Assembly: GCF_963676685.1 (NCBI RefSeq) | Contig: NC_092346.1 | Location: 82,708,001-82,772,000, forward strand | Reading direction: 5' to 3' | DNA: 64,000 bases | DNA from: Mytilus edulis | Lineage: Eukaryota | Part shown: positions 2,199 to 63,500 of the stretch, one piece after another | How the letters are laid out: each line of letters begins with the position of its first letter | Numbering within the stretch: the stretch's first letter is position 1 | Translations under genes and position numbers: made by a program | The notes under the pieces: model-generated | Databases searched by the model: none | The model's input: only the letters and a program-made list of their open reading frames with translations | Told to the model about the DNA's origin: nothing

Positions 2199-2389
2199 TA
2201 AGTGCTAAATTACAGAATGGTATCAATATGGTAGAGTTATGTGAAACAATTAAACTCCATCAGACAAATAGATTTGAAAATGTTGAGCATGGTTGATGAG
2301 AATTCTAACTTTTTAAAATAATTTCTACATTTGCTTTGACCTTCATTCCTTGCACTCTTCAATAAAACTTTTAAATAAATGGCAATGAC

Positions 2390-4191: not shown

Positions 4192-4342
4192 AAGGAATGA
4201 CTGTAACATTTTTTCTGTCTATAAAGAAATAACATAAAAAATTTGGTGTACACTGAATAATGCGTGCAGCGAGTTATTTAACAGTGTGCACCACAGTTTT
4301 TATGTTATTTCGAATAGACAGAAAAAATATTAGTCATTTCTT
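4192..4342. repeat. ~150-bp imperfect palindrome (core of an interspersed element extending to ~4485)
   Basis: Left arm AATGACT..ATTTTTTCTGTCTAT..GAAATAACATAAAAA..TGGTGTACACTG mirrored by CAGTGTGCACCA..TTTTTATGTTATTTC..ATAGACAGAAAAAATAT.AGTCATT. Confidence 0.75.
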
Positions 4343-5487: not shown

Positions 5488-5656
5488 TCAAATACTTTGC
5501 AAACAAAATATGGCTTCATGTAAAATAAGTCCAATGCTTTTTAATAAACACTGTATTTGGCTGTAGTCATTAGTTACAGTTGCTAATGGTAACAAGTTTT
5601 TAATGGAAGACGGAAGTTCCTCTGTATTACTTTCTTTTAAAATAGAGTAATGAGAT
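5488..5656 (-). CDS. M28B-like gene last coding exon
   Basis: ctttacag|(R)SHYSILKESNTEELPSSIKNLLPLATVTNDYSQIQCLLKSIGLILHEAIFCLQSI*; phase 2 matches exon 11; candidate minus-strand AATAAA at 5262-5267 and 5221-5226. Confidence 0.82.
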
Positions 5657-29600: not shown

Positions 29601-32600
29601 TTACTCTACATGAAATTGATAGTCAATTATTTGAAAAAGTATTTATAAAGAATTAAAAGGTACGCATATACGCATGTACATGATGTACATGTATACTAGT
29701 ACAATAGTATGAACAGTTAAAACAGCAGATTGTAGAAATTGATATACAAATAACAAATGTGCACGTAGGTTGTATTTAGCATTTTGATAAGAGATGACTC
29801 AAGATAGCTCAAACTTTTAAAATAAAAGGTGTCCACATTCTGCAAAGTTTCCAGGGATGAGAGTTGAAGACAAATAACAGGTTAATGTACATGTATCCTC
29901 ATTTCCATCATGGGTAGGGTACACATACAACTAAACCAGTGGCAGATAAAGGGGGGTCTTGGGTTTTTAAGGACAATCAGTGCATTTGAATGAGGATGTC
30001 ATATGGTTGAACCCCCCCCCTTTTTAATCCTTGTTTTAGATCCCCCCCCCCTTTTCAAAATGGCTGTATCTGCCCCTGTAAACTACACAAAATAGATGCT
30101 ACCGTTTATGACTGCACTACATGTTAAACCATTATACTAAAGAAGAAAGAATTGTAAGACCATGTTTTTAGGTCCATTGAATTGAAATTCATTTAGTATA
30201 TATTGTTACATATTTGTAAAAATAGCATTCTTAAAAAGTTCATACATTTTAGGGAGGAGTTATTCTGTCGAATTTGTATTAAAATGGTAATTGACAGGAC
30301 TTCAAACTAAATCTTGCATTTGATATAAAACTTCATTGATAAATAAAAATAATTTTTAAATGTATTGAAGAATTTTACTTTACATGTACTTCACCAAAAC
30401 TGGGTGGTAAGAATTTAAACAGAGAGTTTATTATGATTTGAATTAGAGCGACTTAACTTTCTTACATTTACATGTATAAGATAATAAATAACAAAAGCAT
30501 CCAGTACATCAACTATTAGTTGTTAATAATTATAAGCGCGCCATATCTTGTGTATCTCTATTTGTAAATCAGTTTTTAGACAAGTTAATTATAACCATGA
30601 TAACTGCCCTGATAATTTTTCTTAACTGTTAACAATTATAACCCATAATAAACTTGTTTTTACAACTTTTTAGTGATCAAAGTGACATTTAAATGAAATC
30701 TCTGTCTAAACAAAATGTGATCTCAATGGCATTATGTGTGGTAAATGGTCCACATAAATTAGATGAACACAGCTTTCTAAAAATTATCTTTAATCGTTAC
30801 AGCTTTTATCATTGAAAAGAACTTAACAGGTTTCTGTTTCATCACATAAAAGTCATTTTCACTGAGCACATAATGAATTTTTGTATTTTTATACAAATTA
30901 CAAGGTATGTTAGAAAATGGTTAAAGTATAAACAAGAAAAGTGGTTGCGTTTTGAATAGATTTTTCCATATAATTATTGTTATGAATGCTGTCCTGCAGA
31001 GAAAGCTTGCTTGTATTGTAAGTATGCTAATGTTACTTTGAATAAAGCCAGCAAGACAACAGTTGACTTCACATCAAGGTTTTGTCCTCAACTTTTTCAT
31101 TTTAAATCTCTGAACTCATTTCACTATTGAAGATAGGAGAAAGTAGCCTAAAATCCCTCCAATTTATCCCCTATCAATAACATAGGAACAGCTGTCCATT
31201 TCGATTGTATAGTGATGATCTACGTATACTGACCCTTACATGGTCACTACATCTTTAATCTTATTTTATACACAGTTGGGAATAACTCTCAGCATGAAGA
31301 GAGGACATTCATATGAATACATTTACAAGTCATGAATGACTTTATAAATTTTAAAATCTTCACCTATGAAACTTAGTGAAACATGTGAAAGGAAGTAACA
31401 GTATAGACTCCAAGCTTTAACCTAAGATCAAAGGAAGCACCACTGGTATACGTCTTAAAATAATTAATCTTATTTTCTGCGGTTTGATGGTCAAAAGTAC
31501 ATTTACCAGTTAAAGATACATTGTATAAATTGTACCTTGGAGGCTTAACAGATATAAAAGCATTCTTTTCTTCAATTTTTTTTATTATAATTTGTACATG
31601 TACATGTTGATCATGTTATGTACATGTTCATGTATGTTAATATCCATGTACAATTAATGTATATATTCACTATAGAAGTTTATATATCATATCTACATGT
31701 ACTATATATTGAACATAAATGAAACTTTCTAACATGTGAACCTGAACCCACAAAATGTATACATCTTTTAAGTATTTTTTACTGATGGATGTATATGCAC
31801 AACGTGTTTTCTTATTCTTATTTATATTCCATTATGCATAAATGAAGTTGCTATTGTGTATTTTTATTTTTTGTAAATTACTTAATTTAGAGTACAATAT
31901 ATAATAAATTAAAAGTTATTTATATATATATATACATGATATATATATTTTAATAAACATTTTTTTAATTATTTGTTCAAATAACAGTGCAGCCCTGACA
32001 GGCCTGAGAACTTTTAAAATGTCTGGGAAGATGTTTTTTGAAGAAGAAAAAATCAAAATTAATTAATAATAAATGATTGGTAAACCATGTTCATTATAAC
32101 TATATGTACATGTACATAGTATTTCATGACGGAACAAAATATTTTCAGCTAGGGTTATCTATACCTATTGTTCAATTTCATGATATTAATCAAGGTTTTT
32201 ATTACTCAATTCAAAGTTTTGTATGATCCTTTAAGAGTACTTGTAAATATTGTATTCAACAAATTTACGAAATAGTCATGAATTTGAGAAGACAACATAA
32301 ACCTCGTATTTCAAGTCAAAAGAATTTCTAAATCCACCCTTAAAATCTCTGTCAAAGGCTTACAATGTTGTCTAAGTTTGAAGTGTCTCATGTTATCTCT
32401 TAATAAATATTTTCTTTTAATTTCTAATAACACAAGTGATTCTCAAATAGTAGAAAGTTGCACAATAGTTCTTTTATCACACTTAAAACTTAAATTCCAG
32501 TAGAGGAGATAACTCAGTTTATTTTATTCATTATCTGGCTGAATGATTTGTTCTTCTGTAAACCTGAGCCTTACCATTGGTCATGTTGGTTTTGTTAATT

Positions 32601-35135
32601 TGGTGAATGGTATGAGATAATAATTTTCTAATTCATACTGATTGCCTTCATTTAACTCATTGTTGTTAAATTCATTTCTCAATAAAAATTAGTTTCATTA
32701 TTCACTGATCTATGAGACAGTTTATATATATACTGACACATGAAAGAAATCATAAATCCTATTCAGAATTAGGATTGATTATTTCGTCTTGAAAATTGAC
32801 AAGTGTAATAACTAATATTTAAACAATTAAAATATTATCATGTAATCTGAGGCATGTAAGGATTGTTTAAAGTTTTCAAATTTTGACAGTTAAAATCCAT
32901 TTAGCAATTTTACTGTACATGCTGAATAATGTATAACATGTATAAGTTAGAGCTCTGACAAGACTGATAAACCAATTCTGAATCTTGGAAGGCTTACTTT
33001 AAGAGGGGCGTTAAGGAGGAGTATCTGCGAAGAAGAACGAGAAATAAAATTTTCATTTCACTATGAACAAACAATTAAAAATTTCTTGCACGTTGATTTT
33101 TTTACAGATTTCAGGAAACATGGTGAATAATGAACCTTTTTCATGGCTGTGTGTGAAATAAAAATGGCATAACATGTTGCACGAAAATAACCCTTTACCA
33201 CCCTCATTTAAGCTGGAGCAAGTCATATGCATTTTTTACAAAGTTGTAATGAAATTTTTAGACTTACTTTAATGTCTGATTATGCTATAGATTCTGTTCT
33301 GTAAATCTTGAAATTTTTTGCATTTCGAGATTTGTAATAAATTTTCTATAATATAATCTTGAAATGAAAATACAATATCAAAATCTATCCTTCAATTACA
33401 TTCATTGTAAGATAAATAGATATAAGAAGATGAGGTATGAGTGCCATTGAGACAACTCTTCATCCAAGTCACAATTTACAAAAGTAAACCATTGTAGGTA
33501 AAAAAAAAAACTGCCTTCAACACAGAGCCTTGACTCACATCAAACAGCAAACTATAAAGGGCCCCAAAATATTACTAGTGTAAAGCCATTTAAACGGGAA
33601 AACCAATGCACATGTACAAATTTATCTATAATTATAAATGGCATATAATATACATTGTACATGTATCTATGAATCATATACATGTACAATGTACAACATT
33701 TATCCACAATTGTATAAAAAAAAATATTTAAAGTTGTTTTAGACTCTTATGTTTTTTTCTTATTAACTACATGTACAAAAAATGTACAATGTATATATTG
33801 CTATTTTGATTTTTCAATCTAAAGTTAGTCGCCTTTTTAAACTTTTTTTTCATCAAACTTTTCTTAGACTTGTACAAATGTATCTTCTCAGTACATACAT
33901 GTCACACAATTAAATACAGTGATCCACCTATTTATTTAGAAAATTTTTGCTGCATTTTTAATAAATATGTGCCATTTGAAGTATATAAAATATGGATTAA
34001 AATGCCTCTGGCCTTTGTTAGTCCGGTATGATTTTTAATTTTAGTTTCTTGTGTACAATTCGGAGTCTAGTATGCTGTCCATTTATGGCGCAGGAATAGT
34101 GTCACAATGGCGTTTTTATGCCATTGCATAAATGAATTATGCGATGGCATAAATCTATTTATTAAATAATTGTATTTCTGGACTTGCATTATTATTTATG
34201 CGATTGCATAAATCTATTTATGCGATGGTATAAATCTATTTATGCGAACGCAAAAATATCTTTACATTTACGCAACTATGGCGCAGGAATAGTGTCACAA
34301 TGGCATTTTTATGCATTGTGACACTATTACCATGCAATATCCATTATCACTGAACTAGTATGCACATTTGTTAAGCCAGCTGAAGGACGCCTCCTGGTTC
34401 AGGAGTTTCTCGCTACATTGAAGGCCCATTGGTGGCCTTCGGCTGTTGTCTGCTCTATGGTCAGGTTGTTGTCGCTTTGACACATTCCCCATTTCCATTC
34501 TCAATTTTATTAAAAATTGTAAACACAAGTTAGAAAAATATCCATAATAATGTTTGAGGACCTGTTTGGCAGATCTAGAGTTAAAATTTACAAAAGATGT
34601 ATCTTAAATTTGAAGCTGGGTCCATAATAAATATTAGCAGACATATGTCTCTGATATTAGTATTACTTAAATAGAATACTGTATCATATACTATACATGT
34701 ATATACAAATCATCCAATGAAGTCACTTATTTGGGATAGTTATTTTCTTTTTAAGGGATTGTGTTGAATGATTTGCTTTTTCATCTTCAAATATTCAAAA
34801 ACTCACCTTGATATTTTTCGAACATTGTCATTTGAAATAAAATACATGATGTTTTCATGTACAGAATGGAGCATGTGAGTGTCAATTTTATCCCTTCTTT
34901 TTCCAAAACTGCTTTCATCTTCATGAGATTCTTTCAAAAAATATCCAACCATTAATCCAACTAAAAACATAACACTTAAGCTCAAAATAATCAAAGAAAA
35001 TGCCCATGTGCTAAAAGTTCTTTTAAGTTTCTTTTGGGCTGGAGTTTCAGGTGTATAAATTCTCCCTACATCATTAGGATCATCCGACACAGTACTCCAA
35101 CTTCTGTATTTTGTAAACGAACTTGCACTCGCCAT
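5488..35135 (-). CDS. M28B family (GCPII/NAALADase/transferrin receptor-like) type II membrane protein, probably catalytically inactive; 12 coding exons, ~658 aa
   Basis: Exons 35135-34807, 27720-27447, 22352-22233, 16216-16129, 15459-15373, 12518-12426, 11371-11187, 10609-10472, 9251-9108, 8836-8647, 7636-7477, 5656-5488. All have GT-AG boundaries and compatible phases, totalling 1977 nt. Motifs are collinear with GCPII/TfR: GLDRVEVQEYDVVVTYPD, GELVYGDYGR, NVVGSITG..DRFILIG, GWTPWRSVKFCSWD, AVAYIDLD, LLPFN, RRINDAIMKLQR. Confidence 0.9.
6462..6912. mobile_element. Non-autonomous DNA transposon with 4-bp TSD
   Basis: TCAT|GGTCCGAGAACACAATT ... AATTGTGGTCTGGGACC|TCAT. Confidence 0.7.
6977..7020 (-). 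ncRNA. Decayed minimal hammerhead ribozyme motif (G8->A)
   Basis: Minus strand GCAUCA CUGAUAA GUCU-UUUGU-AGAC GAAA UGCAUG UC UGGGGU; lies in the same repeat family as the other copies (about 6932-7085). Confidence 0.7.
7477..7636 (-). CDS. M28B-like gene exon 11 (helical dimerisation domain)
   Basis: cttttcag|(D)IIVEKVTELKNAGKTFTEYIPQLLKSKDGLAVRRINDAIMKLQRILLMPNKY-AG|gtaatt; aligns with LRMMNDQLMFLERAF. Confidence 0.88.
8647..8836 (-). CDS. M28B-like gene exon 10
   Basis: ttccacag|TSDDDHHHMYSLAAARVASLVTLRLLDEELLPFNITFFTSKVYNAI...KLLST-G|gtaaat; aligns with [25 protein letters not shown]. Confidence 0.88.
9108..9251 (-). CDS. M28B-like gene exon 9
   Basis: catgacag|VPDPNNDNLVLENTWDGLLHSMKTETRIQQFGVPVFHASVSQTNNLTQ|gtaaat; overlaps track ORF 8988..9200. 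Confidence 0.82.
9719..10030. repeat. 30-bp minisatellite (~10 units), intron 8 of M28B gene
   Basis: Unit TCAGAGTATATGTTTCAG(T/A)ACTG(T/C)CATACT; explains track ORFs 9645..10055 and 9823..10062. Confidence 0.95.
10472..10609 (-). CDS. M28B-like gene exon 8
   Basis: ctctatag|MQTMSTQSSAVAYIDLDLGQINNGSHWLHLAGSSMFSDLVTSVVKE|gtaagg; aligns with VAYINAD...PLMYSLVHNLTKE. Confidence 0.88.
11187..11371 (-). CDS. M28B-like gene exon 7 (degenerate active-site exon)
   Basis: gtattacag|(D)RFILIGASRSHLQVGTSYLLELARSFKDMQRGNGWTPWRSVKFCSWDHDGISDLGFSQYLK|gtaaag. Confidence 0.92.
11669..12118 (+). mobile_element. HINE/pearl-like (Helentron-associated) non-autonomous element
   Basis: AACAAG start, two internal ~175-bp repeats (…AAACTACCTTGACCAAAAACTTTAACCTGAA), GAC(A/G) microsatellite-like tract, terminal hairpin ATGCCCC…GGGGCAT followed by an A-run. 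Confidence 0.7.
12426..12518 (-). CDS. M28B-like gene exon 6
   Basis: cttttcag|(R)NISVRLVSNYIQITQSVKNVVGSITGDLER-G|gtaaa; aligns with [27 protein letters not shown]. Confidence 0.88.
12590..14378. repeat. 43-bp tandem array (~41 units), intron 5 of M28B gene
   Basis: Unit TGATTCATTATTCCTATTCAGAC(T/A)TGTGAAGATAAGGTTTGTA. Confidence 0.97.
14383..15053. mobile_element. piggyBac-like non-autonomous element
   Basis: TTAA|CCCTTTCACCGAT ... ATCGGCGAAAGGG|TTAA (12/13 TIR match); subterminal direct repeat ATCCCGGTAAA.CGGGACTCATCG near the right end. Confidence 0.85.
15373..15459 (-). CDS. M28B-like gene exon 5
   Basis: aaatatag|(D)TSQQYPFPVQMLSRNISEQLLMYYSTHN-A|gtgagt; aligns with PSIPVHPIGYYDAQKLL; phase 1-1. 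Confidence 0.8.
15943..16069. repeat. Tandem duplication, 63 bp x2
   Basis: GTCAAGTATGGTCAATACTAGTG...CACTACATTATT repeated. Confidence 0.9.
16129..16216 (-). CDS. M28B-like gene exon 4
   Basis: ctgttacag|IRNGITFGVRGILIQNAEKEKMSDITDCL-G|gtagga; aligns with VKNAQLAGAKGVILYSDP. Confidence 0.8.
16408..17079. repeat. Near-perfect 32-bp minisatellite (~21 units)
   Basis: GGCATCAACCAAG(G/A)CTAGCACAGACACTATAT; no spacers. Confidence 0.97.
18254..18350. repeat. Tandem duplication, 48 bp x2
   Basis: TGATAAAAAATTCTTGTGATATATATAAATCAGATTTGTGAATAAGAA twice. Confidence 0.9.
21668..21937 (+). mobile_element. SINE-like interspersed repeat (other copies 24020-24340, 34005-34510)
   Basis: Shared CCTGTCCCAAGTCAGGAGCCTCTGGCCTTTGTTAGTC ... 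TTTGACACATTCCCCATTTCCATTCTC in three copies. Confidence 0.75.
22233..22352 (-). CDS. M28B-like gene exon 3 (PA/apical domain)
   Basis: acatccag|GELVYGDYGRSIDLVRKNRSMSLQGKVLMIRQGEVSIKEK|gtatgt; aligns with GCPII GDLVYVNYAR...SGKIVIARYGKVFRGNK. Not in the ORF track. Confidence 0.9.
25250..26482. repeat. Compound degenerate minisatellite (48-58-bp units)
   Basis: GAGTATGTCAGTAAATGAAGTACTATGTCAAC units (25250-25960) grading into AGTATGGCAGTACATTGCAGT(A/T)CTATGTCAATCTTTCAGTCAGCAGG units (26200-26482). Confidence 0.9.
27447..27720 (-). CDS. M28B-like gene exon 2
   Basis: Acceptor ctattacag|, phase matches exon 1 (AG|A = Arg); encodes DLKLLK...TYGLDRVEVQEYDVVVTYPDPDRPNQLVVINSSG...NEVE; donor GAG|gtatta. 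Confidence 0.88.
29937..30078. mobile_element. Short MITE (CAGTGGC…GCCCCTG family; end remnants near 7765-7780 and 22744-22758)
   Basis: CAGTGGCAGATA ... TATCTGCCCCTG imperfect TIRs with poly-G/poly-C runs. Confidence 0.6.
34084..34339. mobile_element. Non-autonomous DNA transposon (IS3EU-like termini) inserted into a SINE-like repeat
   Basis: TCCATT|TATGGCGCAGGAATAGTGTCACAATG ... CATTGTGACACTATTACCATGCAATA|TCCATT; 6-bp TSD; the uninterrupted host sequence is visible near 21757. Confidence 0.75.
34807..35135 (-). CDS. M28B-like gene exon 1: cytoplasmic tail, signal-anchor TM helix, stalk
   Basis: ATG at 35135; hydrophobic helix WAFSLIILSLSVMFLVGLMVGYFL (aa 44-67) preceded by basic KKLKR; donor AG|gtgagt, phase 2. 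Confidence 0.88.
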
Positions 35136-35673
35136 TTCCGCGTAAATACTGAAGTTATAATTGAGAGTTTCACCTGAGGCACTTCATTATTGATTTTGGG
35201 GACGATCTCAAAGTTTAATTCATGACTTATACTGAAAAGGGTTTAAATCACTCAAAATTTCAATTTCTGTCTAAGATATCGTTTTTTCGTTATACAGGTA
35301 AACTTTGATCTGTTTTTATAACTTTATCAAAGAAGAGTCTGAATTTCCCGCGGGAGATTGCAATGCAAACTATTAAAACATTTACAACTTCGGAATCAAG
35401 ACCGTTAGTAATCCGTACTTTCCCGAAATTATTGCATTTTTCAAAACTTTTTTTCTGAGTGTGTTTTTTTCCCCTACTATTCTGTAGACTATTCTTGCCA
35501 TGTGTAGGGTTATAGTTTGTCAAGTTCTTGTGATGTACCTTAACTTTAGTCATTTTCCTATGCATATACTGATTATGTGATGCTGTTTCTGTATCAAAGT
35601 TCCCATATTTTTTTCAAAAGTTTACATTTAAGTAGTCACGTTTAGTTTAAATAATTATTATTTGGACTTGTTC

Positions 35674-49641: not shown

Positions 49642-49784
49642 TCAGTGTTCACTATCCTCCGTTTCATTGTTTCCATTGACATTAGATAATCTAGGTCTAT
49701 TAGACAGTTCTACTGATCGTTTGTTTCTTGTTTCTTGTTTGTGTCTATGTAAGAGATCTTCAAATGACATCACTATTGTTTTGT
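49642..49784 (-). CDS. Probable terminal exon of the LDLa gene
   Basis: tatgttacag|(D)KTIVMSFEDLLHRHKQETRNKRSVELSNRPRLSNVNGNNETEDSEH*; phase compatible with exon C; no homology support. Confidence 0.6.
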
Positions 49785-52700
49785 CTGTAACATAAATTTG
49801 TTCATTATCTAAAATGCTATTTGCATTATTATTTAGTTTTAAACATCAATAAACTATTGTAAAGATGTTTATTTGAACCACTCGAACTGTATTTGTATAT
49901 ACATCAATTCGAAGAACTTTGACTAAAAGTGGTGCACTGTAACATGGATGGTTTGAATACACCGCTTTTCATTAAAAAAAAATAAAAAGTATAGTGATTT
50001 CTGTTACAGATATCTAAAGCTCTCCAATTATTTCGGTTTTTATACATTCTTAATTGAATTTCAAGAATTTGGCTACAAGCATGCCTGGTAATCGTTAATA
50101 AAAAAAAGTGTTATTCTCATTATTTTAATGTTGACCTGCAGTATTGCAGATTGGAATCCTAAAATGTCTTAATGTGTGTCTGGTCTGGGAAAGGCAACAT
50201 CTTTAATTGGCTTTTAACTTATACAACTTTTATCATATTATGATATTATGATAATTCTGAACTTTTAAATATGTGTATGATCATTCTAGTAAAATGCAAT
50301 ACATCATGCCTAAAACTTACCCGTTTTCGGAACATGGCCTGAAAAATATTTAACCTACAAAAGTTAGTTACGTGCATATATCGAGAGCTCGTTTCACAAA
50401 AGTGTCTTTCAATCTGATGGTATTTTTATTAGGTCAACAAAGGATAATTCTAAAATAAGTAATGTATTAAATTACGACATCACTAAAGTAACATGTTTCT
50501 TTACACAACATGTATCAATGCGCTGTTACAGACAAATAAATAGTTGATAAAGTAAATTAGTGCCATCAGAGATCATCAGAAAGTATGTGAAAATAGCAAG
50601 CTTTGAAAGTAAAAGTAGATCATAGCAGTAACTGTTGTGAAGTCATACGATTCGTTTGTTTGTTTGTTTTTGTTTTATTTTGCTGATGGTTCCGGACTTG
50701 ATGATTAACATTTTGGCAGAGTTAAGCCTATTCGTATTTTTTTCTATTCTTCATTATGATAAACAAAGCAACTAAATTAAAGAGCCCAATATATGCTATA
50801 CACGGTTAAAGATTAAAAAGAGAGTAAGAAAGAAAAGTAAATATGATAGACCGAAAATTGAAAACGCATTCATCAGATTGGCATTTGCGTCATGGCAAAG
50901 AACATCTTATTTACTCTACTAGACATCAATCATCTCATGGGTCAAAGACAATGTATTTAATTAAATTATAGAAAAAGCTTGATCTAAGATTAAAATTCAG
51001 AAGACCAAAATAATAGTTGCCAAGAAAAGATCAACAGCACATATTTGTAAACCAAAATATTACTTCTACATGAAAATTGGAATTTTGAAAACATTACTGG
51101 ACAATTAATTTTTTGATAAACATTATTTTTAAATAACAATTAATTCAGCAACAAAATACGAGCTCCTCTGGTGACAAAAATTCGCAAAAGCTAAACCATT
51201 ACAAATACATCCGAGCTCCAATCGAAAGGGCGAGATACTAGACAAAGTACAGTTATAGTACCTTGACAATCACTTTCATCAGAACCATCCGAACAGTCTA
51301 CAATACGATCACATATCCATGCTGTATACACACACTTCTTTCCATGATCACATGAGACCATACCTGTGGCACACTGTATGCGTATTACTGGTGCTTTAGT
51401 TGTAACTGTAACATAAACATTGATACAGAATTAAGACATCATATCATTATATTACGTAAGTAAACTTTTAAATGACTGTAGATGGTAAAAACTTTTTAAA
51501 ATAAACAGTATTCATTTTTTTTTATTATCATATACTATACTAGTCATCTCAAGTCTTCTTTTTTTTTGGAAAGGGTACATCTATATTTTAGCATTTGTGC
51601 TTTTATTTTATTTTCTTAGAAATTTGAAATTATTATTAGTACTTATATATTGATCATCTTTTGATGGCCATTCTTTTTATTTTATATTTCACATATTGTA
51701 TATTAACATTTAAAAATCACATCGTGGCTTGTTCAAACTTGATTTCTCTACAAACAATTGTGAATCCAGCGTTTATGGTCGGGTAAAGTATCTCTATCAA
51801 CTTGCACGAACCATTCAATGAAAAATTTGCTTTCACATTCATATTCTAAAAAGAAAAAAGTACCTTTCTACCAGAACCTTGATGTATAAACCATGAAATA
51901 TGGTATAATTTCAGATGATAATATTAACAATCAAACCCGTGGTTATTCGTAACTTGAGTAAAGGGGCTGATGCTGGAATTTTCTCATATTAGCAATGCAG
52001 ACGTGTGTTGGCACTGGAACTTCAGTATTATTTGCAGAAATGATTCGCCTACTGCTACATAAAGGGGGTAGACTAGTGATCAGTTTCACAAAAAGTCTTA
52101 CATCTAAAGTTGAACAATTCTATATACTCTAGTCGTAAGATTATTTGTGAAACTGAACACTGGAATGTGGTAGAAATGCGACATTAATGAGGGAAACGCT
52201 ACAGCCACAGAGTTGGAAATAATTTTCAAATTTTCAAATATTTTTCCAGGAAAAGGGGAACAGAAAACCTATAGCTATATAAAACAATACAATATGGAAA
52301 ATCAGCGTGTTGTAAACTCGATTATTCATATGTCTGTGTAATAATGTTCCTTGTATTGTCCGAGCAGCATCGGGTCGTAGGTTCACAGTTCTAATTTACG
52401 AAGGTGGAAACATTGTCTCATTATTTTATTTAGGAAATTTTTAAAGTGTATCACGTTTTACATGAAAAAGGTCCTGGAAATTTTTGTTAAAGAAAAATCA
52501 CAAAAGTACTGAACTCCGAGGAAAATTCAATCGTAAAGTCCCTATTCAAATGGCAAAATCAAATGACAAAACACATCAAACGAATGGACAACAACTTTCA
52601 TATTCCTGACTTTGTACATGCATTTTGAAATGTAGAAAATGGTGGATTGAACCTGGTTTTATAGCGCTAAACCTCTCACTTATATGACAGTCGCATCAAA

Positions 52701-55700
52701 TTCCGTTATATTTACAACGATGCATGAACAAAACAGACATAATAAATAAAAGTCAAAATATTGGTACATCAGTCATCAGTCACTGTGTTACAATTTCAAA
52801 AATACAATCATTTACAAGAAAGCACAAAAACCCCACCTCTAATATCTTGATTATGAGAAAGCAATTGCTTTCATCTTTTCAGTTGCATAATCATAAATTT
52901 ACTAAAAATTCTGGCTTTAGGAAGTCCGTAAATACGTTACACATACTCTTCTGACCTAAGTCTTTACACTATACACAGTCTTTATAATCCGATAATATTC
53001 ATGTGAGTAAGAAATGTATAAAACAAAATACCGATTTCAAAGGTAAATTAAGAAAGAGGATGTCGAATAAAAACTGACAAAATCAAATGTTATCAATCAC
53101 ACGAATCAACAGAACAAGTGAAAACAATAAAAAAAAAATGAAATGCTGTGTGTTCATATGTTTCTTACCAAGTGTCTATTATGAATAACATAGTTTAACC
53201 CTTTTTCATCTTTTTTTTTCTTTTTCTATCTCATGTATTGTTTAACAAAAAAAATGATAAAGATAAACGTTTTAAAGTTGTTGTTTTTTTTGGCAAAATA
53301 GTTTTCATCTACAGTTTTCCTGTTGAATTTGCCTCCAACTAATGCGGTTTATTTTGGATTTTTTTTTTGGTGAATTTTCAAAGAGGATAGAAAACTATTT
53401 TTTTTTTTAACGTGTTCAAATTTTAAATGATAAAATAAACAAACACGTCATAAGGGAAACAATGAACATTGCATAAAATATTGCAATCAATATTATAGGT
53501 TTAAACTACCTGGAATTAATATCGAATTTTCTTCATGTTGTGAAATATACCATTTTAAAGACAATTTCAAGAAGAAGACGCTTTACCAAAGTAAGTATAA
53601 TTTAACGGAATATGAAGATTATATTATAAATTAGAATTACACTTTATAAATAAAATGAACAGCAAGTGTATGTCCTAATAATAACAGATTTAGATATATG
53701 ATAAAATTGAACATCCCTTTTCTTAATTAGAAATAGCATGAAAAGAATTGTTCATCTAGTTTACATTTACACAATGTATATAGATAAATATGATTGAATG
53801 GATATTCTAATGGCATTAGCTTGACTGCTTCATACAAAACTAGTATTTCTACTTTCGTTTTATTGATAACATTTTATTAATTGGATGAAAGGTCTTGTTT
53901 TTTTCTGATTTTTTTTTTACATTTTGAATACTAACCGCCAAGCATAAACAATCACATTTTAATAATTATGTGTCTTATATCGAAATAGGGTATCAGCTAC
54001 TGCATGTTTATCGTCTCTTTAAACAGAGGTAGTTAATTAGTTCAAACGCATTGATGCACATATGCGATAACTATTTACTATATGGTAATATACAACTATA
54101 TCTTACATTAATAAAGTCTTCAACTAGAATTTTGGCAATGATATTTTTATAGACCGTCTTTACAACCCCATAATATTCACGTGAGGTAGAAATGTATAAA
54201 ACAAAATACCGATGTCCAAGATAAATAGGGGGAAGTCAATAAAAACTGACAACATCAAATGTTATTAATCACATGAATTAACGGAACGAGTGAAAACAAC
54301 TGTCATATTCCTAGCTTGGTACAGTCATTTGAGTGAAAACAACTGTCATATTCCTGACTTGGTACAGTCATTTGAGTGAAAACAACTGTCATATTCCTGA
54401 CTTGGTACAGAATTTGAGTGAAAACAACTGTCATATTCCTGGCTTGGTACAGTCATTTGAGTGAAAACAACTGTCATATTCCTGACTTGGTACAGAATTT
54501 GAGTGAATACAACTGTCATATTCCTGGCTTGGTACAGTCATTTGAGTGAAAACAACTGTCATATTCCTGACTTTGTACAGTCATTTGAGTGAAAACAACT
54601 GTCATATTCCTGGCTTGGTACAGTCATTTCAGCGAAAACAACTGTCATATTCCTGGCTTGGTACAGTCATTTCAGTGGAAACAACTGTCATATTCCTGAC
54701 TTGGTACAGTCATTTGAGTGAAAACAACTGTCATATTCCTGACTTGGTACAGTCATTTGAGTGAAAACAGCTGTCATATTCCTGACTTGAAATTGGCATT
54801 TCCCGACGACATTGGTGGGTTATACCTTTATATAGTTTAACCTCCCATTTGTATACTAGTTGTCTATAGTTCCAATATCGACAAAATTAGACGAGAAGGA
54901 CCAGGTTCAATCCACAATGTTTTCTTAAAATGTCCTGTACCAAGTCAGGAAAATGGCAGTTGTTATCTTATAGTTCGTTTCTCTGAGTTTTACATTGTCG
55001 TTTGGATTTTTGTAGGACTTTAATGTTTACAAAACTCTGAATTTTTGAAATAATAATAAGGCTTTTCTATCTCAGGAATAGATAACCTTAGCTGTATTTG
55101 GCAAAACCTTTAGGGATTTTGGTCCTCAATGCTCTTTAACTTCGTAATTTATTTGACTTTTAACATATTTTTTTTATTCAAGCGTCACTAATGAGTATTT
55201 TGTAGACGAAACGCGCGTCTGGCGCAAATATAAAACTTCCATTCTTCAATCCTGGTATCTATGATGAGTTTATTTAGTGTTTCTGTTGTTTCGTTGTTTT
55301 CCTCTTATAATTGATGTGTTTCACTTGGTTTTAGTTTGTAACCCAGATTTTTTTTCCTCTCAATCGATTTATAACTTTCGAACAGCGGTATACTACTGTT
55401 ACCTCTATAGTGTTACTATACAAATCATTGCAACCATCAGAAACAACAACTATTATTGGGAAGCAGCAGCCAAAACTAAATTAACATGCACAACAACTGA
55501 TCAAAAATTCAAACAAAAGTACAAATAAATCTAACAGAGACGCACATAAAAAAGTTTAAGTAGTTGATGCCATTTTGTTTTTTACTTTAACATGTTTGTT
55601 TGTATTCTATATATTGTATCCTATAGTTCGTTTCTATGTATGATGGCGTTTGCTTTTGTTGCACTTCAGTGTTCCTGTTGTTCCTTTGTTTTATAGTTGA

Positions 55701-58700
55701 TGTGTTTCCTCGGTTTTAGTTTGTAACCCGGAATTGTTTCTTTCGATCGATTTATGATTTTTGAACACCGGCATACTACTGTTTTCTTTATCTATAGTGA
55801 TTAAGATTATAACACAATGTTGACTGCTGTACTACTATTTTGGATATTTGTACTAATTATGTCTGTTTGTTTTGTTCACACATTTTTGTGTAGATAATTG
55901 AATTGTATACGACTGGTACAAAAGGCTGAGGTTTTAATATTAAGCAACAAAACTATGCTTCATCCAACATTATTTACACAAGGAAATGCCTGTACCAAAC
56001 CAGAAATATGACAGCTGTCTTCCATTCGTTTGATGTGTTTAAGCTTTTGATTTTGCAGTTTGATAAGTTCCTTTTAGTTTTGAATTTTCCGTTGAGTTCG
56101 GTATTTTTGTTATTTTACTTTTGACAAATAAAAAAAGTTCTTGAAGTTGATAGTACACACCGTATTTAGCTTGTTTACCACTTCTAGATAAAGTACAAAA
56201 TGTGAAGATTATTATCAGTAACATTTAAAAGTTAAAATTCTCAATGCTCTTCAAATTTGCAATTGTTTGGCTTTCTACATATTTTGATATGAGCGTCACT
56301 GATGAGTCTTATGTAGACGAAACGCGCGCCTGGCGTACTAAATTATAATCCTGGAACCATTGATAACTATTCTGTCTTCCAAAAACATAAGAATACCAAT
56401 GAACCATGTGAAACTCAAAATCTAATTGGTCTACACATGGGAGTAATATCAATGGCAATATTAACGTCGACATAAAACTTCCATGGTTCACTAAAGTCGT
56501 GTAAGAACTATCAAGTACTATAATAATTTGTTGTCAACATTAATGAAAATGAAATTTGGTAATGGGGTGTCCTTACGGTAGTGTATGTAACTAAAGAGAT
56601 AACAAAAAGGGAGAGAGGACAAAATTGATGAGATTCTTGAACTGTCCTCAAGTTCTCAAAGTAAATTTGTACATAATATCAACAAGAAATAAAATAAAGC
56701 CATGTGTGTCTTATTGCAAACTAATTGATTAAAATATGATTAAGATATGCAACATTTGAAAAACAGCAGTATAATTATAATAAAAAGTATGTATTACAAC
56801 TTATAAACTTTAAGTCAGGAATATAACAGTTGTCCATTCGTTTGGTGTGTTTGGGTGATTGATTTTGTCAATAGAAGGGACTTTCTGAATTGAATTTTCG
56901 TTTGAGTCCGGGTAATTTATAATTTTTACTTTTCTTTTATATATTTAATATCTATTTTATATTTAATAATTAAGTTAATGATGTTGTCCCGTTTCTGATA
57001 AAAAAAAATGTGGGAAATGTTCAAATATTGATGTTATCATTCAAAAACATGGTCACATTTTCGGTTGAATACAATTGAAGATGAGTTTTCTTAGTTTGGA
57101 TGACATTTACCACACCCTTAGACCATGACAATACATCAAAGATACCAGGGTTATAATTTGGTACTTTTTTCAACATATTTTTAAATCATTGCGCTCGAAT
57201 CCAAACAGTTAAAGTTCACTTTCAAAAACGAATTTGAAGAGCATCAAAAATATAAATCCAAATAAGGCAATATATACATAGGAGTATAGAAATCCCTTAA
57301 TGTTTCAAACTATTCCATATTTTATCAACAGTAAATTTACAGAAAATAAAAATATCAATAATTCTGGTTTTAGATAAGTAAATGGCTTTTTTTTTCATAA
57401 GCAAAAACTTTCAAAGGTCACTCTGCAACATGCAGCCTCTGGTAAAATTAAGAAATCATTATCAAAGGTTGCAATGGTAAATCCACATGACAGCATAACT
57501 AATGAAACCAAAAAAATAGTATTTTTCAACTATTGCTATTGTTATGTATTTTTATACGAAAAAATGAAATGAAGTTGCATTGAATTAGTATTTTTCAACT
57601 ATTGCTATTGTTATGTATTTTTATACGAAAAAATGAAATGAAGTTGCATTGAATTATGTATAAAATATTGGAATTTCACATTTTTCCCACAGCATGAGAT
57701 ATGTAGCAGCATACATGTTGGCTGTGATGGGTGGCATTGAAAACCCATCAGTCGACGATTTGAAGAGGATTATTGGAAGTGTCGGGATTGATTCGGATAA
57801 CGAGAAGATAAATCTTGTAATATCTAAGTTAAAAGGAAAGAACATAGAAGAATTGGTTTTGAAAAGTAAGTATTTCAACCAAATAGCTTCAATTTTTGTG
57901 ACTGTGTATGTTTTTGTATGTTGTATTTTCTCTGTCTTCACTTGATTTTGGAGGGTAGAACTTTCGGTATGATATTTTTGGCACTATCTCTTGTGAGTAT
58001 ATTTCTCTAGAGATTTACTTTTAGAGTTTGGCTTCTACAATTCTATTAAAGAAATAACCTACTGTTAAAGATTTATTTCGAATTCTTAACTGTTAACACT
58101 CAGCGTTGTTTACAATGACAGAAACAATTCTGCAAGATATGTTTGAAACATACGTTTTTTAATTGATAAACTCAATTCCAATAGAAATTTATTTTACGAA
58201 TGAAGTAAAAACAATGAAAGTTGACGACAACTAGTGCAATTTCAGTATTAATGATTCAGAATATTTCGTTTAAACTCACAAAAAGTACCAGATGTAGAAG
58301 ATTGTTCAACAAAATTGTGCACATATCACACATTATTAGTTATTATTGTCTTTGACTGGCTTTAAGTAAGTGCGAAAACTATCATATCTTTACTAAGTAT
58401 CGTGAGTCATTTTATTAATATAGATTAAAATCTAATAAATTACACCGTTGGTTTCCCCATTTGAATGGTTTTACACTAGTCATTTCTGGGGCCCTTTATA
58501 TAGCTCGGTGTGAGCCAAGTCTCCGTGTTGGAGACCGTACTTTGACCTATAATGGTTTACGTTTACAGATTGTGACTTGGATGGAGAGTTGTCTCATTGG
58601 CACTCATACCACATCTTCTTAGTAACGTCTTCTTCAAATATTGAATTGAATGCAGCTGATTTCAAAAGTTATACGAAATGAAAGGAAGTGGCCATAACAT

Positions 58701-61553
58701 TTTGGCAAATACTTTCGCTTTCATTTCGAATAAATTTCCACAGCATTTAATTCTGCTATCAATTACAGGTCAAGGTCTTCTGGCATCTGTATGTGGCGGG
58801 TCAGAATCAACTTGTAATCAGACAGGTACACCTCAAGTAAAAGGTATATTTTATTTAAGTAGTTCTTAATATCAAATGATAATAAAGGAATAACCGATAA
58901 AAACTGGAAATTAAGCCATGAAAAACTAGACACATATAGAAGTATACGCGGTATGGGCTTTGCTCATTGATGAAGGTCGTACGGTGACCTATAGTTTTTA
59001 ATTTCTGTGTCATTTTGGTCTCTTGTGATGAGTTGTCTCACTTGCAATCATACCACATCTTCTTTTTTTATACATAATGAAGATACGGTCTTCAGGTATA
59101 CTCAATCGGTCATCGTTTATTGTATATTTTTTATATAAACAGGAAGTTCCGAATCAGTTATGCATATCTTCCTCTCATTTAGAGTGGAACAACCTACGAA
59201 AGTCAGACCAAATGTATCATTTCTATGTTTACAAAACACAATCCTTGTAAGGAATACATTTTATTGTGAATTCAATTAAGAAAATAACAGACGGAAAAAC
59301 CTGAGGTTCGGCAATTAATCAAACAGAAAGGAAAAACAAATCGACAAGACCTTCAACAAAACAAGCTTTAGTTAAACATAAAGGTTTCAACTCTGGTAAC
59401 CTGGTTTGGCTTCCAGATGCGTTGACCAATATGACTTTCATTTTTGTCATAGGTGATCAATTCACTATAATTCTAAAATATTGGTACTAATGAGAATGAT
59501 GTCCAATTCATGGTCTGTGAAAACAATTTAAAATTTGTTTTAACGGGCTTTCAAATCATACCTCTATGTTCATTAAAACAAATGGAATTCACATAAATGC
59601 GTTGAAATATATAAAAAAAAACGAATGAGAGGTAATGACACGAAGACAGTTCATAGTATCCCAATGCTACACATAAAACAAAAGACTTAAATTGCAAATA
59701 TAACGGTCACAATAAAAAAAAACACCATATTTTTACATGCCATATTCGTGTGAAATCGGGTAACTACCTAAAAAAAGTCTAGGGATTTATGTGTTTCAAA
59801 CACCGGTATACGGTTGGCTTCATTAAGTAACATAAATGATTTCTTGTTGCTACTTTTTTGTGTGTAATTGTAACCGGTACCTATTAAAAATGCAGAAGTG
59901 ATGGGTTGTTTGTCAGCGGAAATACAAAGGACAAATACAAAAATACAATGGTTTAAATGTAGTGTTTAATTTAGTGAGAAAAAACATCTTCTATTACATT
60001 ATGCTGGTCAATGAGATAGATGATAGTATTTAAATAAAAACATGCATTGCGGGTATTACAATAATGCATGATAATGACGAAGACAGATATTGTAAATAGA
60101 TTTCATTTTTCTTTCAGAAGTGTCTAGAGAAGATAAAGAAAAGCCTAATGACAAAGATGATGGCAATGACAGTGATGGGAGTGACGGGAGTGATGTTAGT
60201 TTCGGGTTGTTATTTGACTAATCGTTATGTAAACATTTTGGTTTTATAAACAAATGCGTGTTATTCTTCTCAACAATAACTTAAAATTTATCAAATTTTA
60301 TACCATTTGATGTATTCATACGCAAACTATGTGAGTTTGTGTTTTATATTGAAACTATATACATACACTAAATGCTAGATTAAATTATATGGCTTTATAG
60401 TGTTCATGTATGGGATTTTGGGTGTTATAATGTTTAGTCTTCAAATATTAGCATGATTGTGTTTTCTTGCTTCTACCAATGTAGTAGGAGAATAGTAAAT
60501 CTTAATAAGCTGAATTGATAGTTTTAGTAATACCAGACAAGCAGAAGCAGCATAAGTTTATAGACAAAATTGTCTCGCATTGATATATTCACATACTTTT
60601 TCATGCTCTGATTTAAAAACAAATGTTGTAGATAGAGTTGATACAAAAATGGAGAAATGTTACAAAATTCAAAATTAATTCCTACAATGCTTTCACATTC
60701 TAATTATCATGAAATATTTCTCATAACAACAGTCTAAAAAAAACCTGTCAGTGCCTATTTACTGATATACACTCACCTCGGCAATGATGTTCATCTGACC
60801 CGTCATTACAATCGATGATATCGTCACATCTCCATGTGTTTGGACAACATCTCTCACCATCAGCACACATAAAATCTCCTTTAGCACAAAGTTTCGGAGC
60901 AGAAGTTGTCGTTGTTGTCGTTGGAGTTGTTTTCAGTGTGGTACCTAAAAATCGCTTTCAAAGATGTTACTTTCTTATATAAAAAAATATAACAAATTAT
61001 AACGAATACTTAGATACGGATATGATTTATAGCATACATTTTAAAAATTATGAAAATGGTGGATTAAACCTGGTTTAATAGCTTCTTCGATAGATCCTAT
61101 CATGTCTACATGGCACTGACCCACAGCGATTAATGGCAAATACCCGGAACGACCTGTGTAAAAGAAAGAAGCGGAAGCGATGCCAGAGAGACTAGAATCA
61201 TATTCAAAATAGTGTGGCTGTGGTCATTGATTGACGACCTAAATTATCCCATTGACTGATTGTCTGAATTAAGAGACTAAGTTTTATGAAAAATGGTCGA
61301 AACTATCACACATTGGAGACTTTTCTTCTATTATATGAATTTAAGCAGTGCAAAGATAAGAGAAAGACATCTTGTCTTGATTAGCATTCCGGTGGTAAAT
61401 CATGACTATACTATTGTATACCTTGACATTTCTGTTCGTCTGTATTGTCATAGCAGTCCATTATACCGTCACATCTCCACGAATCTGGGTAACATTTGTC
61501 ATTGTCACACAGGAACTCTTCTTCACCACAATGAGAAGTTTCACGTACCCGGT
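49642..61553 (-). CDS. 3' part of an LDL-receptor class A (LDLa) repeat protein gene; 5' end lies beyond the window
   Basis: Phase 1-1 exons 61553-61422, 60944-60777 and 51405-51262 each carry one LDLa module with the W.CD...DC.D.[ST]DE..C signature; a phase-1 terminal exon follows at 49784-49642. Confidence 0.8.
51262..51405 (-). CDS. LDLa exon C
   Basis: tatgttacag|(V)TTKAPVIRIQCATGMVSCDHGKKCVYTAWICDRIVDCSDGSDESDCQ-G|gtacta. Confidence 0.9.
52073..52163. mobile_element. Short foldback MITE remnant
   Basis: TAGTGATCAGTTTCACAAAAAGTCTTAC mirrored by GTAAGATTATTTGTGAAACTGAACACTG. Confidence 0.6.
54288..54790. repeat. 43-bp minisatellite (~11.5 units)
   Basis: Unit GAGTGAAAACAACTGTCATATTCCTG(A/G)CTTGGTACAGTCATTT. 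Confidence 0.95.
55030..55275 (+). mobile_element. Hammerhead-bearing interspersed repeat (retrozyme/PLE-associated); related copies near 56140-56370, 6932-7085, 47805-47890, 48950-49020, 57140-57300
   Basis: Shared flanks (tcaatgctctt..., then ..aatcctggta(t/c)...tgat) around the hammerhead core in several copies. Confidence 0.65.
55182..55225 (+). ncRNA. Minimal type I hammerhead ribozyme motif (G5->A)
   Basis: GCGUCA CUAAUGA GUAU-UUUGU-AGAC GAAA CGCGCG UC UGGCGC. Confidence 0.75.
56293..56336 (+). ncRNA. Minimal type I hammerhead ribozyme motif (U16.1->C at cleavage triplet)
   Basis: GCGUCA CUGAUGA GUCU-UAUGU-AGAC GAAA CGCGCG CC UGGCGU. Confidence 0.78.
57517..57656. repeat. Tandem duplication, 69 bp x2, just upstream of the P2 acceptor
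   Basis: TAGTATTTTTCAACTATTGC…GAAGTTGCATTGAAT twice. Confidence 0.9.
57694..60221 (+). CDS. RPLP2: 60S acidic ribosomal stalk protein P2-like (divergent paralog), 3 coding exons, ~116 aa
   Basis: Exon 57694-57865 encodes MRYVAAYMLAVMGG...SVGID...KLKGKNIEELVLK. Exon 58769-58843 encodes SQGLLASVCGGSESTCNQTGTPQVK. Exon 60118-60221 encodes EVSREDKEKP...SDGSDVSFGLLFD*. Both introns are GT-AG, phase 1. An acceptor (tttttcccacag|C ATG) just before the start codon implies an upstream non-coding exon. Confidence 0.88.
60777..60944 (-). CDS. LDLa exon B with Thr-rich linker
   Basis: atttttag|(G)TTLKTTPTTTTTTSAPKLCAKGDFMCADGERCCPNTWRCDDIIDCNDGSDEHHCR-G|gtgagt. Confidence 0.92.
61422..61553 (-). CDS. 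LDLa exon A
   Basis: atcacag|..RVRETSHCGEEEFLCDNDKCYPDSWRCDGIMDCYDNTDEQKCQ-G|gtatac. Confidence 0.9.
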
Positions 61554-61848: not shown

Positions 61849-63500
61849 TACGGCGGCTTTGTGAAAAATTGTGCACATCTTGCTACAAGCATGAAATCTG
61901 GCATAGATCGTACTCAACTATTTCTCTTTCATTTCAGATAGGGAGGCATTTGAAAAAAATGCCTCACTTCCGGTAAAATTCAAAATGGCGGATATCATAC
62001 TTAAATTAGCCCTATATCGAAGGCTAGTATGTGAAAAGGTGTTATTAACATGCTACTATCATAATATTTGGTATTAACCTTTGTTTTGTACTACTTTTGG
62101 ATATGTGATATAGATAAGATGTCTTCAAAAACCCTACTTCCGGTAAAATCAAACATGGCGGATATAGTACTACAATAAGCTTATTTTTAGGGAGGATAAT
62201 TGAAATGTGTTTTAAAGTATTGCTACTATCATTATATTGTGCAGGAACCTTTCTTTGGTGCTTCTCATGGATACAATGTATAAGACATATGTCTTTCAAA
62301 CCCTTACTTCCGGTAATATCCAATATGGCGGACATAGAAATATTGATATTTTTCATTTTTATATTCAACTTTTTTCAAACTGTAAATTAAATGAATTTTT
62401 GGGGTTGTCATTAAACTTTTTGCTTTAAGTCATCCTCAAAACCACTAATTCTATTCAATTGCATATGATTAAATACAAAATTAACACTTCCGGTAAAAAA
62501 TCAATATGGCGAAAATTACTAAGATGAGTCCTCAATCCACATAGTCGATGTAGAGTTTTGGATAGATTGATTAAAACAAAATAAAATCACTAAAGTTGTT
62601 AAACATCTTTAGAATGACTTATTTATGGCCGCATATACATGTTTACTCACAATCGGAGAGCTTGTTTTCCAAATTTACAGAAATCGTGGTATTTTTTTCT
62701 ACATCTATAATGTACAAGCTCCTGATAAGTTTAAGAGGCCTCACAAAAGAGTTGTTGAAAAGGGTGCCATGGATAATATTTTCCCCTTCGCCATTCATAA
62801 GGGATGGACTAGTTAGAAAAGGAACCAATACCAAGCTTGGTACTCATTCACATCCGCCATGGTATACTACACGTTTTACTTGCTGAAAAAGACAAGACCG
62901 AGTCGTGGGAATAGCCTCAATAAGTATTTCCTCTTCCAAAAACACATTTTTTCTTGCTTCGCTAACCGATTTGATAAGTTTCTTCGATCGTACAACAAAA
63001 CCATGTATCGTTCTATCAATGACATTGTCAAATCCATATCCGGTGATGTTGGTTGATCAATCATCATTCTTTAAACACCATCCATGTCACCAACGCAGTT
63101 CCTTTTCCAGCAAACGTGTAATATCTCAATGCCTAGTGTATTTGAAAGGTCATGGATAGATATATATCTGAAGCTTTTCCCACTTCCAAATGCAAACCAA
63201 AGTGTGTCTGCCCCTAGGTCACTGAAAAGCGAAACCGCAATGACAGCAACATCAGTATCGAATGTTCGAGTCATGACTCAGTCAAGTCTGTGTTTCACTG
63301 CATCAGACACATGCATCTTGATTCATGTGTCAGCCTCTTTACGTGAACATGATGCTAAGCTTGAAACATCACCATGTGATGGATAGCACAGAACATCCTG
63401 AGTAATTGTTGCTACAACTACCACCCTCAAAATCTATTGAGCAAGCTGTTGCGAATGAAAACTTAAAAGATCTTTCTTATTGTCGTAATCTTGTTTTGAC
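61849..63500 (-). mobile_element. Decayed AcademX-type DNA transposon (XPG-like nuclease and Cys-rich C-terminus) with subterminal repeats
   Basis: CSRKEADT*IKMHVSDAVKH..*VMTRTFDTDVAVIAV…LWFAFGSGKSFRYISIHDL; IERYMVLLYDR; IEAIPTT..CLFQQVKRVVYHGG; degenerate Cys cluster at ~62630-62740; ACTTCCGGT…AT(A)TGGCG repeats at 61966, 62136, 62306, 62486. Confidence 0.7.

What the first reader, a model, noticed from the sequence alone, without database searches (positions are those of the whole stretch)
57694..60221. Divergent ribosomal stalk P2 paralog with a rewritten factor-binding C-terminus
Seen: the N-terminal dimerisation domain is canonical. The usual Ala/Pro-rich hinge is replaced by ASVCGGSESTCNQTGTPQVK (two Cys, almost no Ala), and the C-terminus is …DSDGSDGSDVSFGLLFD instead of EESDDDMGFGLFD. 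Introns are retained and the frame is open, so this is a DNA-level duplicate rather than a retrocopy. Established: the SDDDMGFGLFD tail is nearly invariant in eukaryotic P proteins; it recruits translational GTPases, contributes to GCN2 activation and docks ribosome-inactivating toxins. Inference: a specialised stalk protein (tissue- or stress-specific ribosomes, a dampener of elongation, or a toxin-evading variant) alongside a canonical P2 elsewhere in the genome.
Basis: partly seen in the sequence, partly recalled or inferred. Interest (0 to 1): 0.7.

Follow-up and report, generated by a model that had tools for sequence, protein, structure and literature searches.

The report
Nested mussel P2 paralog, altered tail
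Mussels carry a second, weakly transcribed copy of the ribosomal stalk protein P2, likely nested inside another gene's intron, whose almost invariant tail is changed but keeps its key Leu-Phe anchor, so it likely makes a weaker stalk in some minority cell type.

Summary
Observation confirmed. Three coding exons give a 116-aa P2 identical to an annotated Mytilus edulis 'P2-like' protein, and contigs from two runs are spliced exactly so. A canonical P2 lies on another contig; P0 and P1 tails read canonical. It is old (synonymous sites near saturation, dN/dS about 0.15) and conserved in M. galloprovincialis and M. coruscus, whose last 13 residues match. It is barely expressed: no exon-1 depth against 249 and 2,587 canonical junction reads in two raw RNA runs. 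'Rewritten' overstates the change: the Leu-Phe anchor stays; the DDD patch, CK2 sites and Ala hinge are lost. Similar divergent P2s occur in limpet, vent snail, Aplysia and blood clam; trees cannot show one origin. Best reading: a cell-type-restricted, weaker stalk P2 under relaxed purifying selection. Toxin evasion is unlikely. Tissue and ribosome loading are untested.

The parts
52350..52403 (+). Putative non-coding first exon (inferred, not read-verified)
   Evidence: 54 nt ending at a GT donor, matching the 54 unplaced 5' letters of the spliced X1 contig; the region is homologous to the upstream part of the M. coruscus gene model. It lay outside the stretch on which reads were laid.
57693..57865 (+). 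Coding exon 1 (ATG 57694; residues 1-57, most of the four-helix dimerisation domain)
58769..58843 (+). Coding exon 2 (end of helix 4; Ala-free, Cys/Ser/Thr hinge). An alternative donor after 58825 would give the 110-aa isoform annotated in M. galloprovincialis
60118..60400 (+). Coding exon 3 and 3' UTR (stop 60219-60221; ATTAAA at 60379; X1 contig ends at 60400)
60171..60218 (+). Variant tail: Ser every third residue (S101, S104, S107, S110) from a 9-nt near-repeat, then F-G-L-L-F-D
51406..60776 (-). Inferred 9,371-nt intron of an LDLa-repeat host gene that contains the whole P2 paralog
   Evidence: GT donor at 60776 and AG acceptor at 51406; both flanking exons phase 1-1. No read joining them was seen.
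60777..60944 (-). Host-gene LDLa exon (168 nt)
   Evidence: PF00057, E 3.8e-9; splice sites
51262..51405 (-). Next host-gene LDLa exon (144 nt)
   Evidence: tblastn E 8.5e-11 to the previous LDLa exon; splice sites
61422..61553 (-). Upstream host-gene LDLa exon (132 nt)

Best explanation
This is an old, intron-retaining duplicate of ribosomal stalk protein P2, spliced but weakly transcribed and likely nested antisense in an LDLa gene's intron, that likely still pairs with P1 and loads on P0 in a minority cell type (likely germline), where its tail would recruit translation factors more weakly than normal. Shown: gene structure, splicing, low level in the runs laid, purifying but relaxed selection, kept P1-contact residues and kept Leu-Phe anchor. 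Predicted: the four-helix fold. Inferred: protein production, stalk loading, tissue, and weaker binding. The weakening would come from loss of the DDD patch and both CK2 consensus serines, and a one-residue shift of the inner Phe. On this reading the gene is mainly a second, separately regulated supply of P2 whose tail has drifted within the limits of the LF anchor, rather than a new machine.
For: Selection: NG86 against the canonical paralog over codons 1-65 gives pS 0.72, pN 0.30, dN/dS about 0.15. M. edulis vs M. coruscus match at 58 of 65 N-domain residues, against 30 of 69 (with stops and a gap) for translated upstream non-coding homology (Fisher p 2e-8). Relaxation: 7 of 65 changes vs 1 of 65 for canonical M. 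edulis/M. californianus (p 0.06; equal distance of the two species is recalled); 7 variable sites among edulis-complex alleles. Fold: AF2 helices 2-12, 20-29, 36-46, 51-68, pLDDT above 90 over residues 1-40, residues 68-107 under 50; 1.4 A rmsd over 55 columns to human ribosomal P2. P1 interface: human A5 L8 L9 I26 V30 I55 (PMC3326305) read A M L I V V. Tail: the LF pair needed for eEF1A GTPase is kept (PMC4267659); F111/L114/F115 sit at the same distance from the C-terminus as archaeal L103/L106/F107. Expression is far below canonical in 2 of 2 raw RNA runs. [quoted passage not shown] Most non-canonical fly ribosomal-protein paralogs are tissue-biased and dispensable or interchangeable (PMC12704716, abstract).
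Against: No tissue-labelled expression, no peptide and no ribosome data were found; the germline step rests on analogy only. The last 13 residues are identical between M. edulis and M. coruscus while the hinge has 9 changes in 38 (p 0.03 at the hinge rate, 0.15 at the whole-protein rate), which hints that the new tail is itself selected. Helix-3 K41 is Leu, a P1-like change, and K61 is Leu; both recur in some other divergent molluscan P2s and may mark a different partner or geometry. At the levels seen, the protein could not occupy an appreciable share of stalks in those samples. The nesting rests on exon phases, not on reads.
Confidence: 0.5

Rival explanations
1. A functionally specialised stalk subunit. 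The Ser-every-third-residue tail would be a phospho-switch (a CK1-type relay; motif recalled) replacing constitutive CK2 sites, tuning elongation or uncoupling ribosomes from GCN2 in a given cell state. It may belong to an ancient molluscan second-P2 lineage.
For: Tail conserved over 13 residues across the genus. No S-x-x-D/E site in the tail against two in the canonical one; canonical tails are almost fully CK2-phosphorylated (PMC11624264, passages). GCN2 activation scales with the number of tails (PMC6421407, passages). Divergent P2s with hydrophobic residue 41 occur in Patella, Gigantopelta, Aplysia and Tegillarca; Patella and Gigantopelta group at 99/89.
Against: The other molluscan tails differ from each other and from Mytilus, which looks like drift around LF rather than a shared new motif. 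The ladder derives from a 9-nt near-repeat, its length varies (4 vs 3 Ser), and a D108N allele exists. One origin is unresolved: 83% of bootstrap trees in one taxon set, 3% in another; AU p 0.52 for one clade and 0.30 for a mytilid-only duplication.
Confidence: 0.2
2. A slowly decaying, nearly dispensable duplicate with leaky transcription and no role on ribosomes.
For: No exon-1 depth in two deep raw RNA runs; a raised amino-acid change rate and 7 polymorphic sites; one M. galloprovincialis model looks rearranged (P0001).
Against: Open frame and splice sites kept in three named Mytilus species, and an intact exon 1 in unnamed relatives at 75% identity. Synonymous sites near saturation with dN/dS about 0.15; coding far more conserved than flanking DNA.
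Confidence: 0.15
3. An extraribosomal P2: a free dimer or sink for P1 or translation factors, possibly redox-linked through the two hinge cysteines.
For: Both Cys are kept in M. coruscus; new hydrophobic surface residues L41 and L61; P2 homodimers form and do not bind P0 (PMC3326305); no matching P1 paralog was found.
Against: One allele has C66S; the P1-contact residues are conserved; there is no direct evidence.
Confidence: 0.1
4. A variant that evades ribosome-inactivating toxins.
For: Both elements that one such toxin reads, DDD and FGLF (PMC3280276, abstract), are disrupted.
Against: P0 ends in the canonical tail and the P1 tail is canonical as far as read, so 3 of 5 tails per stalk would stay canonical; canonical P2 dominates the transcripts; no such threat to mussels was identified here.
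Confidence: 0.05

Closest known systems
Eukaryotic 60S acidic ribosomal protein P2 (RPLP2; PF00428; human 4BEH, 2LBF, 4V6X)
   Same: Four-helix N-domain, P2-type start, P1-contact residues, acidic disordered C-half, terminal LFD, intron positions shared with the mussel's canonical gene.
   Different: No Ala in the hinge, two Cys, no DDD or CK2 consensus, FGLLF in place of MGFGLF, K41L and K61L, very low transcript level, likely nested antisense.
Tissue-biased non-canonical ribosomal-protein paralogs (Drosophila set in PMC12704716; mouse RPL39L; zebrafish Rplp2/Rplp2l in PMC11383705)
   Same: A dispersed duplicate beside a canonical housekeeping gene, with low bulk expression and faster evolution.
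   Different: DNA-level rather than retroposed; the change falls on the factor-binding tail; tissue and ribosome loading not shown. The zebrafish pair is expressed at similar levels.
Archaeal stalk protein aP1 C-terminal helix (L103, L106, F107; PMC4267659)
   Same: Hydrophobic residues at -6, -3 and -2 from the C-terminus.
   Different: Arose from a eukaryotic P2, apparently by a one-residue insertion; similarity of binding mode is untested.
Other divergent molluscan P2-like database entries (Patella KAK6192802.1, Gigantopelta XP_041347914.1, Aplysia XP_005103046.1, Tegillarca KAJ8312701.1)
   Same: Hydrophobic residue 41, mostly Ala-poor hinge, tail departing from MGFGLFD to varying degrees.
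   Different: Each has its own tail; orthology unresolved. That each species also has a canonical P2 was not checked.

Membership tests
P2 (RPLP2) family | PF00428 above the curated cut-off | tested here: met
   34.5 bits vs 28.1; canonical paralog 89
P2 (RPLP2) family | Four-helix N-terminal dimerisation domain of P2 type | tested here: met
   AF2 model; top three PDB fold matches are human P2; best sequence hits are P2 chains
P2 (RPLP2) family | P1-contact residues A5, L8, L9, I26, V30, I55 | tested here: met
   A, M, L, I, V, V (residue list from PMC3326305)
P2 (RPLP2) family | Charged helix-3 triad D37/R38/K41 that separates P2 from P1 | tested here: inconclusive
   E, K, L; position 41 is hydrophobic in 60 of 215 rows of the set examined
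Canonical stalk P2 | Ala-rich hinge | tested here: not met
   0 Ala in 37 residues vs 13 in 33
Canonical stalk P2 | SDDDMGFGLFD tail with CK2 serines | tested here: not met
   SDGSDVSFGLLFD; no S-x-x-D/E after residue 85
Canonical stalk P2 | Terminal Leu-Phe anchor for translational GTPases | tested here: met
   L114-F115-D116; requirement from PMC4267659
Canonical stalk P2 | Incorporation into P0(P1-P2)2 on 60S and factor binding | not testable with these tools
   No proteomic or binding data found
Specialised-ribosome paralog | Tissue- or stage-restricted expression | tested here: inconclusive
   Very low in 4 of 4 runs laid; tissues unknown
Specialised-ribosome paralog | Not interchangeable with the canonical paralog | not testable with these tools
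   Needs genetics or reconstitution
Retrocopy or pseudogene | Intron loss or a broken frame | tested here: not met
   Both coding introns kept at the parent's positions; frame open; spliced
Nested antisense gene | Whole gene within one intron of an opposite-strand gene | tested here: inconclusive
   Phase-compatible LDLa exons flank it at 60777-60944 and 51262-51405; the host junction was not seen in reads

The most novel reading that the evidence does not exclude
Molluscs have kept, since before the bivalve-gastropod split, a second P2 lineage used in a specific cell type, probably germline. In Mytilus it swaps the constitutively CK2-phosphorylated DDD-MGFGLFD tail for an archaeal-spaced FGLLF anchor behind a switchable serine ladder, giving naturally specialised stalks that tune factor recruitment or GCN2 signalling.
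Probability: 0.13. Interest if true: 0.72.

Novelty: new variant of a known kind. Interest (0 to 1): 0.42.

Why it matters
The stalk tail is among the most invariant motifs in eukaryotes, and most tested ribosomal-protein paralogs turned out interchangeable or dispensable. A conserved animal P2 that alters exactly this tail while keeping the LF anchor is a natural mutant. It could separate anchor from charge and phosphorylation in elongation-factor and GCN2 activation, and it offers a direct test of ribosome specialisation at a known functional site. If it is merely a drifting low-level copy, it matters only for annotation.

Tried and rejected
Run index: no holder on record as RNA was listed; only the four runs laid are used as evidence. 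A complex prediction of the tail with an elongation factor returned no model, so docking stays untested. A co-duplicated P1 or P0: PF00428 and a P1-exon search of the own genome found none (lower bounds, and the P1 query was a 44-aa exon). Homology of the putative 5' exon to the canonical 5' exon: a shared 10-mer, but shuffle p 0.23, so not claimed. Tail borrowed from the host's LDLa 'DGSDE' motif: the Ser codons differ (AGT vs TCA/TCT) and the strand is opposite, so rejected as coincidence. Intronic snoRNAs: 0 Rfam hits in the window and at the canonical locus. Metagenome scan: 5 loci, none an ortholog with flanks, so no cross-species DNA for branch dN/dS or synteny. ESM Atlas gave only generic P2 clusters. 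Phylogeny of 57-66 columns could not date the duplication. Literature: ten searches showed no paper on this gene in their listings; one search included three accessions, none found among the 20 papers listed. Supplements of PMC8892766 and PMC11470919 had no P2 entry. One preprint names a differentially methylated 'P2-like' gene in M. californianus gill without saying which paralog; its supplements could not be seen and may bear on this. Earlier scan notes: nothing relevant.

Full report
Observation. The gene is as described. Coding exons 57694-57865, 58769-58843 and 60118-60221, with GT-AG introns, give a 116-aa protein identical to P0053, which its source names M. edulis 'P2-like' XP_071164949.1. 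A 632-nt contig in run X1 joins all three exons and ends at 60400, about 20 nt after an ATTAAA; a contig in X3 carries exons 1 and 3 with an exon-2-sized gap. X1 and X3 are only guessed to be RNA, but intron-free joins, with no processed copy found in the genome (2 matches of 3 candidates scored), point to transcripts.

Genomic context. The own genome holds a canonical P2 on C6 (= P0058) with the same two phase-1 coding introns, plus P0 and P1 on C12 and a second copy of the canonical last exon on C363. The P0 tail is canonical; the P1 tail is canonical as far as read (to an intron after MGFG). No second P1 was found (a lower bound). New here: three LDLa exons on the minus strand (61422-61553, 60777-60944, 51262-51405; a fourth lies beyond the window) are all phase 1-1 with proper splice sites, so the P2 paralog very likely sits whole inside a 9,371-nt antisense intron. 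The host junction itself was not seen in reads.

Expression. In raw RNA run X24 the canonical exon1-2 junction has 2,587 reads, while the paralog has zero depth over exon 1 and about 2 reads over exon 3. In X21 the figures are 249 and no exon-1 depth. Contig depths point the same way (10 vs 3,741 in X1; 5-15 vs 12,686 in X3) but are a poor measure of expression. I laid 4 of the 24 runs listed, and none carries a tissue label. The gene is therefore expressed, but negligible in these samples.

Selection and age. Against the canonical paralog, codons 1-65 give pS 0.72 and pN 0.30, dN/dS about 0.15 (dS is near saturation, so the ratio is rough and averages both lineages). Orthologs are 97% identical in M. 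galloprovincialis and 88% in M. coruscus. The N-domain matches M. coruscus at 58 of 65 residues, against 30 of 69 for translated non-coding homology upstream (p 2e-8). It changes faster than canonical P2 (7 vs 1 of 65, p 0.06), and 7 sites vary among edulis-complex alleles. Unnamed exon-1 fragments P0006 and P0060 (43 of 57 identical) group with it at 94-96 bootstrap, so the duplicate probably predates the genus.

Protein anatomy. AF2 with a 64-sequence alignment gives four confident helices and a disordered stretch at 68-107, matching human P2. P1-contact residues from the human NMR structure (PMC3326305, passages) are kept or conservatively changed; K41 and K61 are Leu. The tail keeps L-F-D. 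Ito et al. (PMC4267659, passages) showed that mutating this Leu or Phe cuts eEF1A-dependent GTPase to a third, and that archaeal aP1 needs L103, L106 and F107; the variant's F111, L114 and F115 have that spacing. Lost are the DDD patch (3 acidic residues in the last 14 vs 6) and both CK2 consensus sites, which are normally phosphorylated (PMC11624264, passages). In their place is a Ser at every third residue, from a 9-nt near-repeat; its reading as a kinase relay is recalled, not tested. GCN2 activation depends on the number of tails (PMC6421407, passages).

How unusual. Of 333 proteins fetched, 194 had a recognisable acidic-plus-LF tail; the 139 dropped were mostly fragments or read-throughs, and included four variant alleles. 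Among the 194, 119 end in MGFGLF, 178 keep canonical spacing, 8 have the archaeal-like spacing, and SFGLLF occurs only in the Mytilus paralog. The set is biased towards divergent sequences. Ala-poor, odd-tailed P2s recur widely, and include named entries from Patella, Gigantopelta, Aplysia and Tegillarca. With 66 columns, a single molluscan origin is neither shown nor rejected (83% vs 3% of bootstrap trees by taxon set; AU p 0.52, and p 0.30 for a mytilid-only origin), and long branches may attract. The second tree left out P0008 and the unnamed long-branch rows.

Mechanism. Most likely (0.5) the protein still forms P1-P2 dimers on P0 in a minority cell type and offers a weaker, CK2-independent tail. 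Germline is my guess by analogy with nested fly duplicates (PMC5174743, abstract and passages; PMC11694760, abstract) and with non-canonical ribosomal-protein paralogs, most of which proved dispensable or interchangeable (PMC12704716, abstract and opening). True specialisation (0.2), decay (0.15), an extraribosomal role (0.1) and toxin evasion (0.05) are the rivals. Evasion fails mainly because P0, P1 and the dominant P2 keep the motif described in PMC3280276 (abstract). Zebrafish Rplp2/Rplp2l (PMC11383705, passages) shows P2 paralogs on animal ribosomes, but at similar levels.

Novelty and verdict. The gene is auto-annotated in databases. Ten paper searches (listings only) showed no study of it or of divergent-tail molluscan P2s; subscription papers and most supplements were not seen. 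It is a real, conserved new variant of a known kind, with an inferred nested position and a testable tail, but with no evidence yet that it reaches ribosomes. Interest 0.42.

Noticed in passing
window 51262-61553 (-) and L005 ~2050-2200 (-): Multi-exon LDLa-repeat gene with a Thr-rich linker, the likely host of the P2 paralog; a possible further exon near 49645-49845 has an RNKR basic site. Identity unknown.
   Followed up: partly
L003 ~2040-8150 (first coding intron of canonical P2, 6.1 kb): Heavy, strand-biased RNA coverage (up to ~3,000x in X21, well above the exons) with back-going joints; no Rfam hit. Could be repeats or intron-hosted stable RNAs.
   Followed up: partly
window 27429-35183 (-): Exons of a type II membrane protein resembling a glutamate carboxypeptidase/M28 peptidase (recalled resemblance; no Pfam hit on the two exons tested).
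   Followed up: no
window 59143-59199 (+): Cryptic exon in intron 2, used by M. galloprovincialis model VDI78051.1, which also repeats exon 1: a tandem duplication allele or an assembly/model artefact.
   Followed up: partly
window 57509-57660: Near-perfect ~78-nt tandem duplication just upstream of the coding exon 1 acceptor.
   Followed up: no
G000:C363:4291-4362 (L009): Near-identical second copy of the canonical P2 last exon on a small contig, probably an uncollapsed haplotype.
   Followed up: no
proteins P0106, P0219-P0249 (unnamed): A separate unnamed lineage of P2s ending MGMGLFD comes in two types, one also with Leu at position 61 and a hydrophobic residue 41, suggesting the same changes recur in second P2 copies.
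   Followed up: partly
window ~62575-63400: Stop-interrupted ORF fragments that look like a decayed DNA transposon; no Pfam hit.
   Followed up: no
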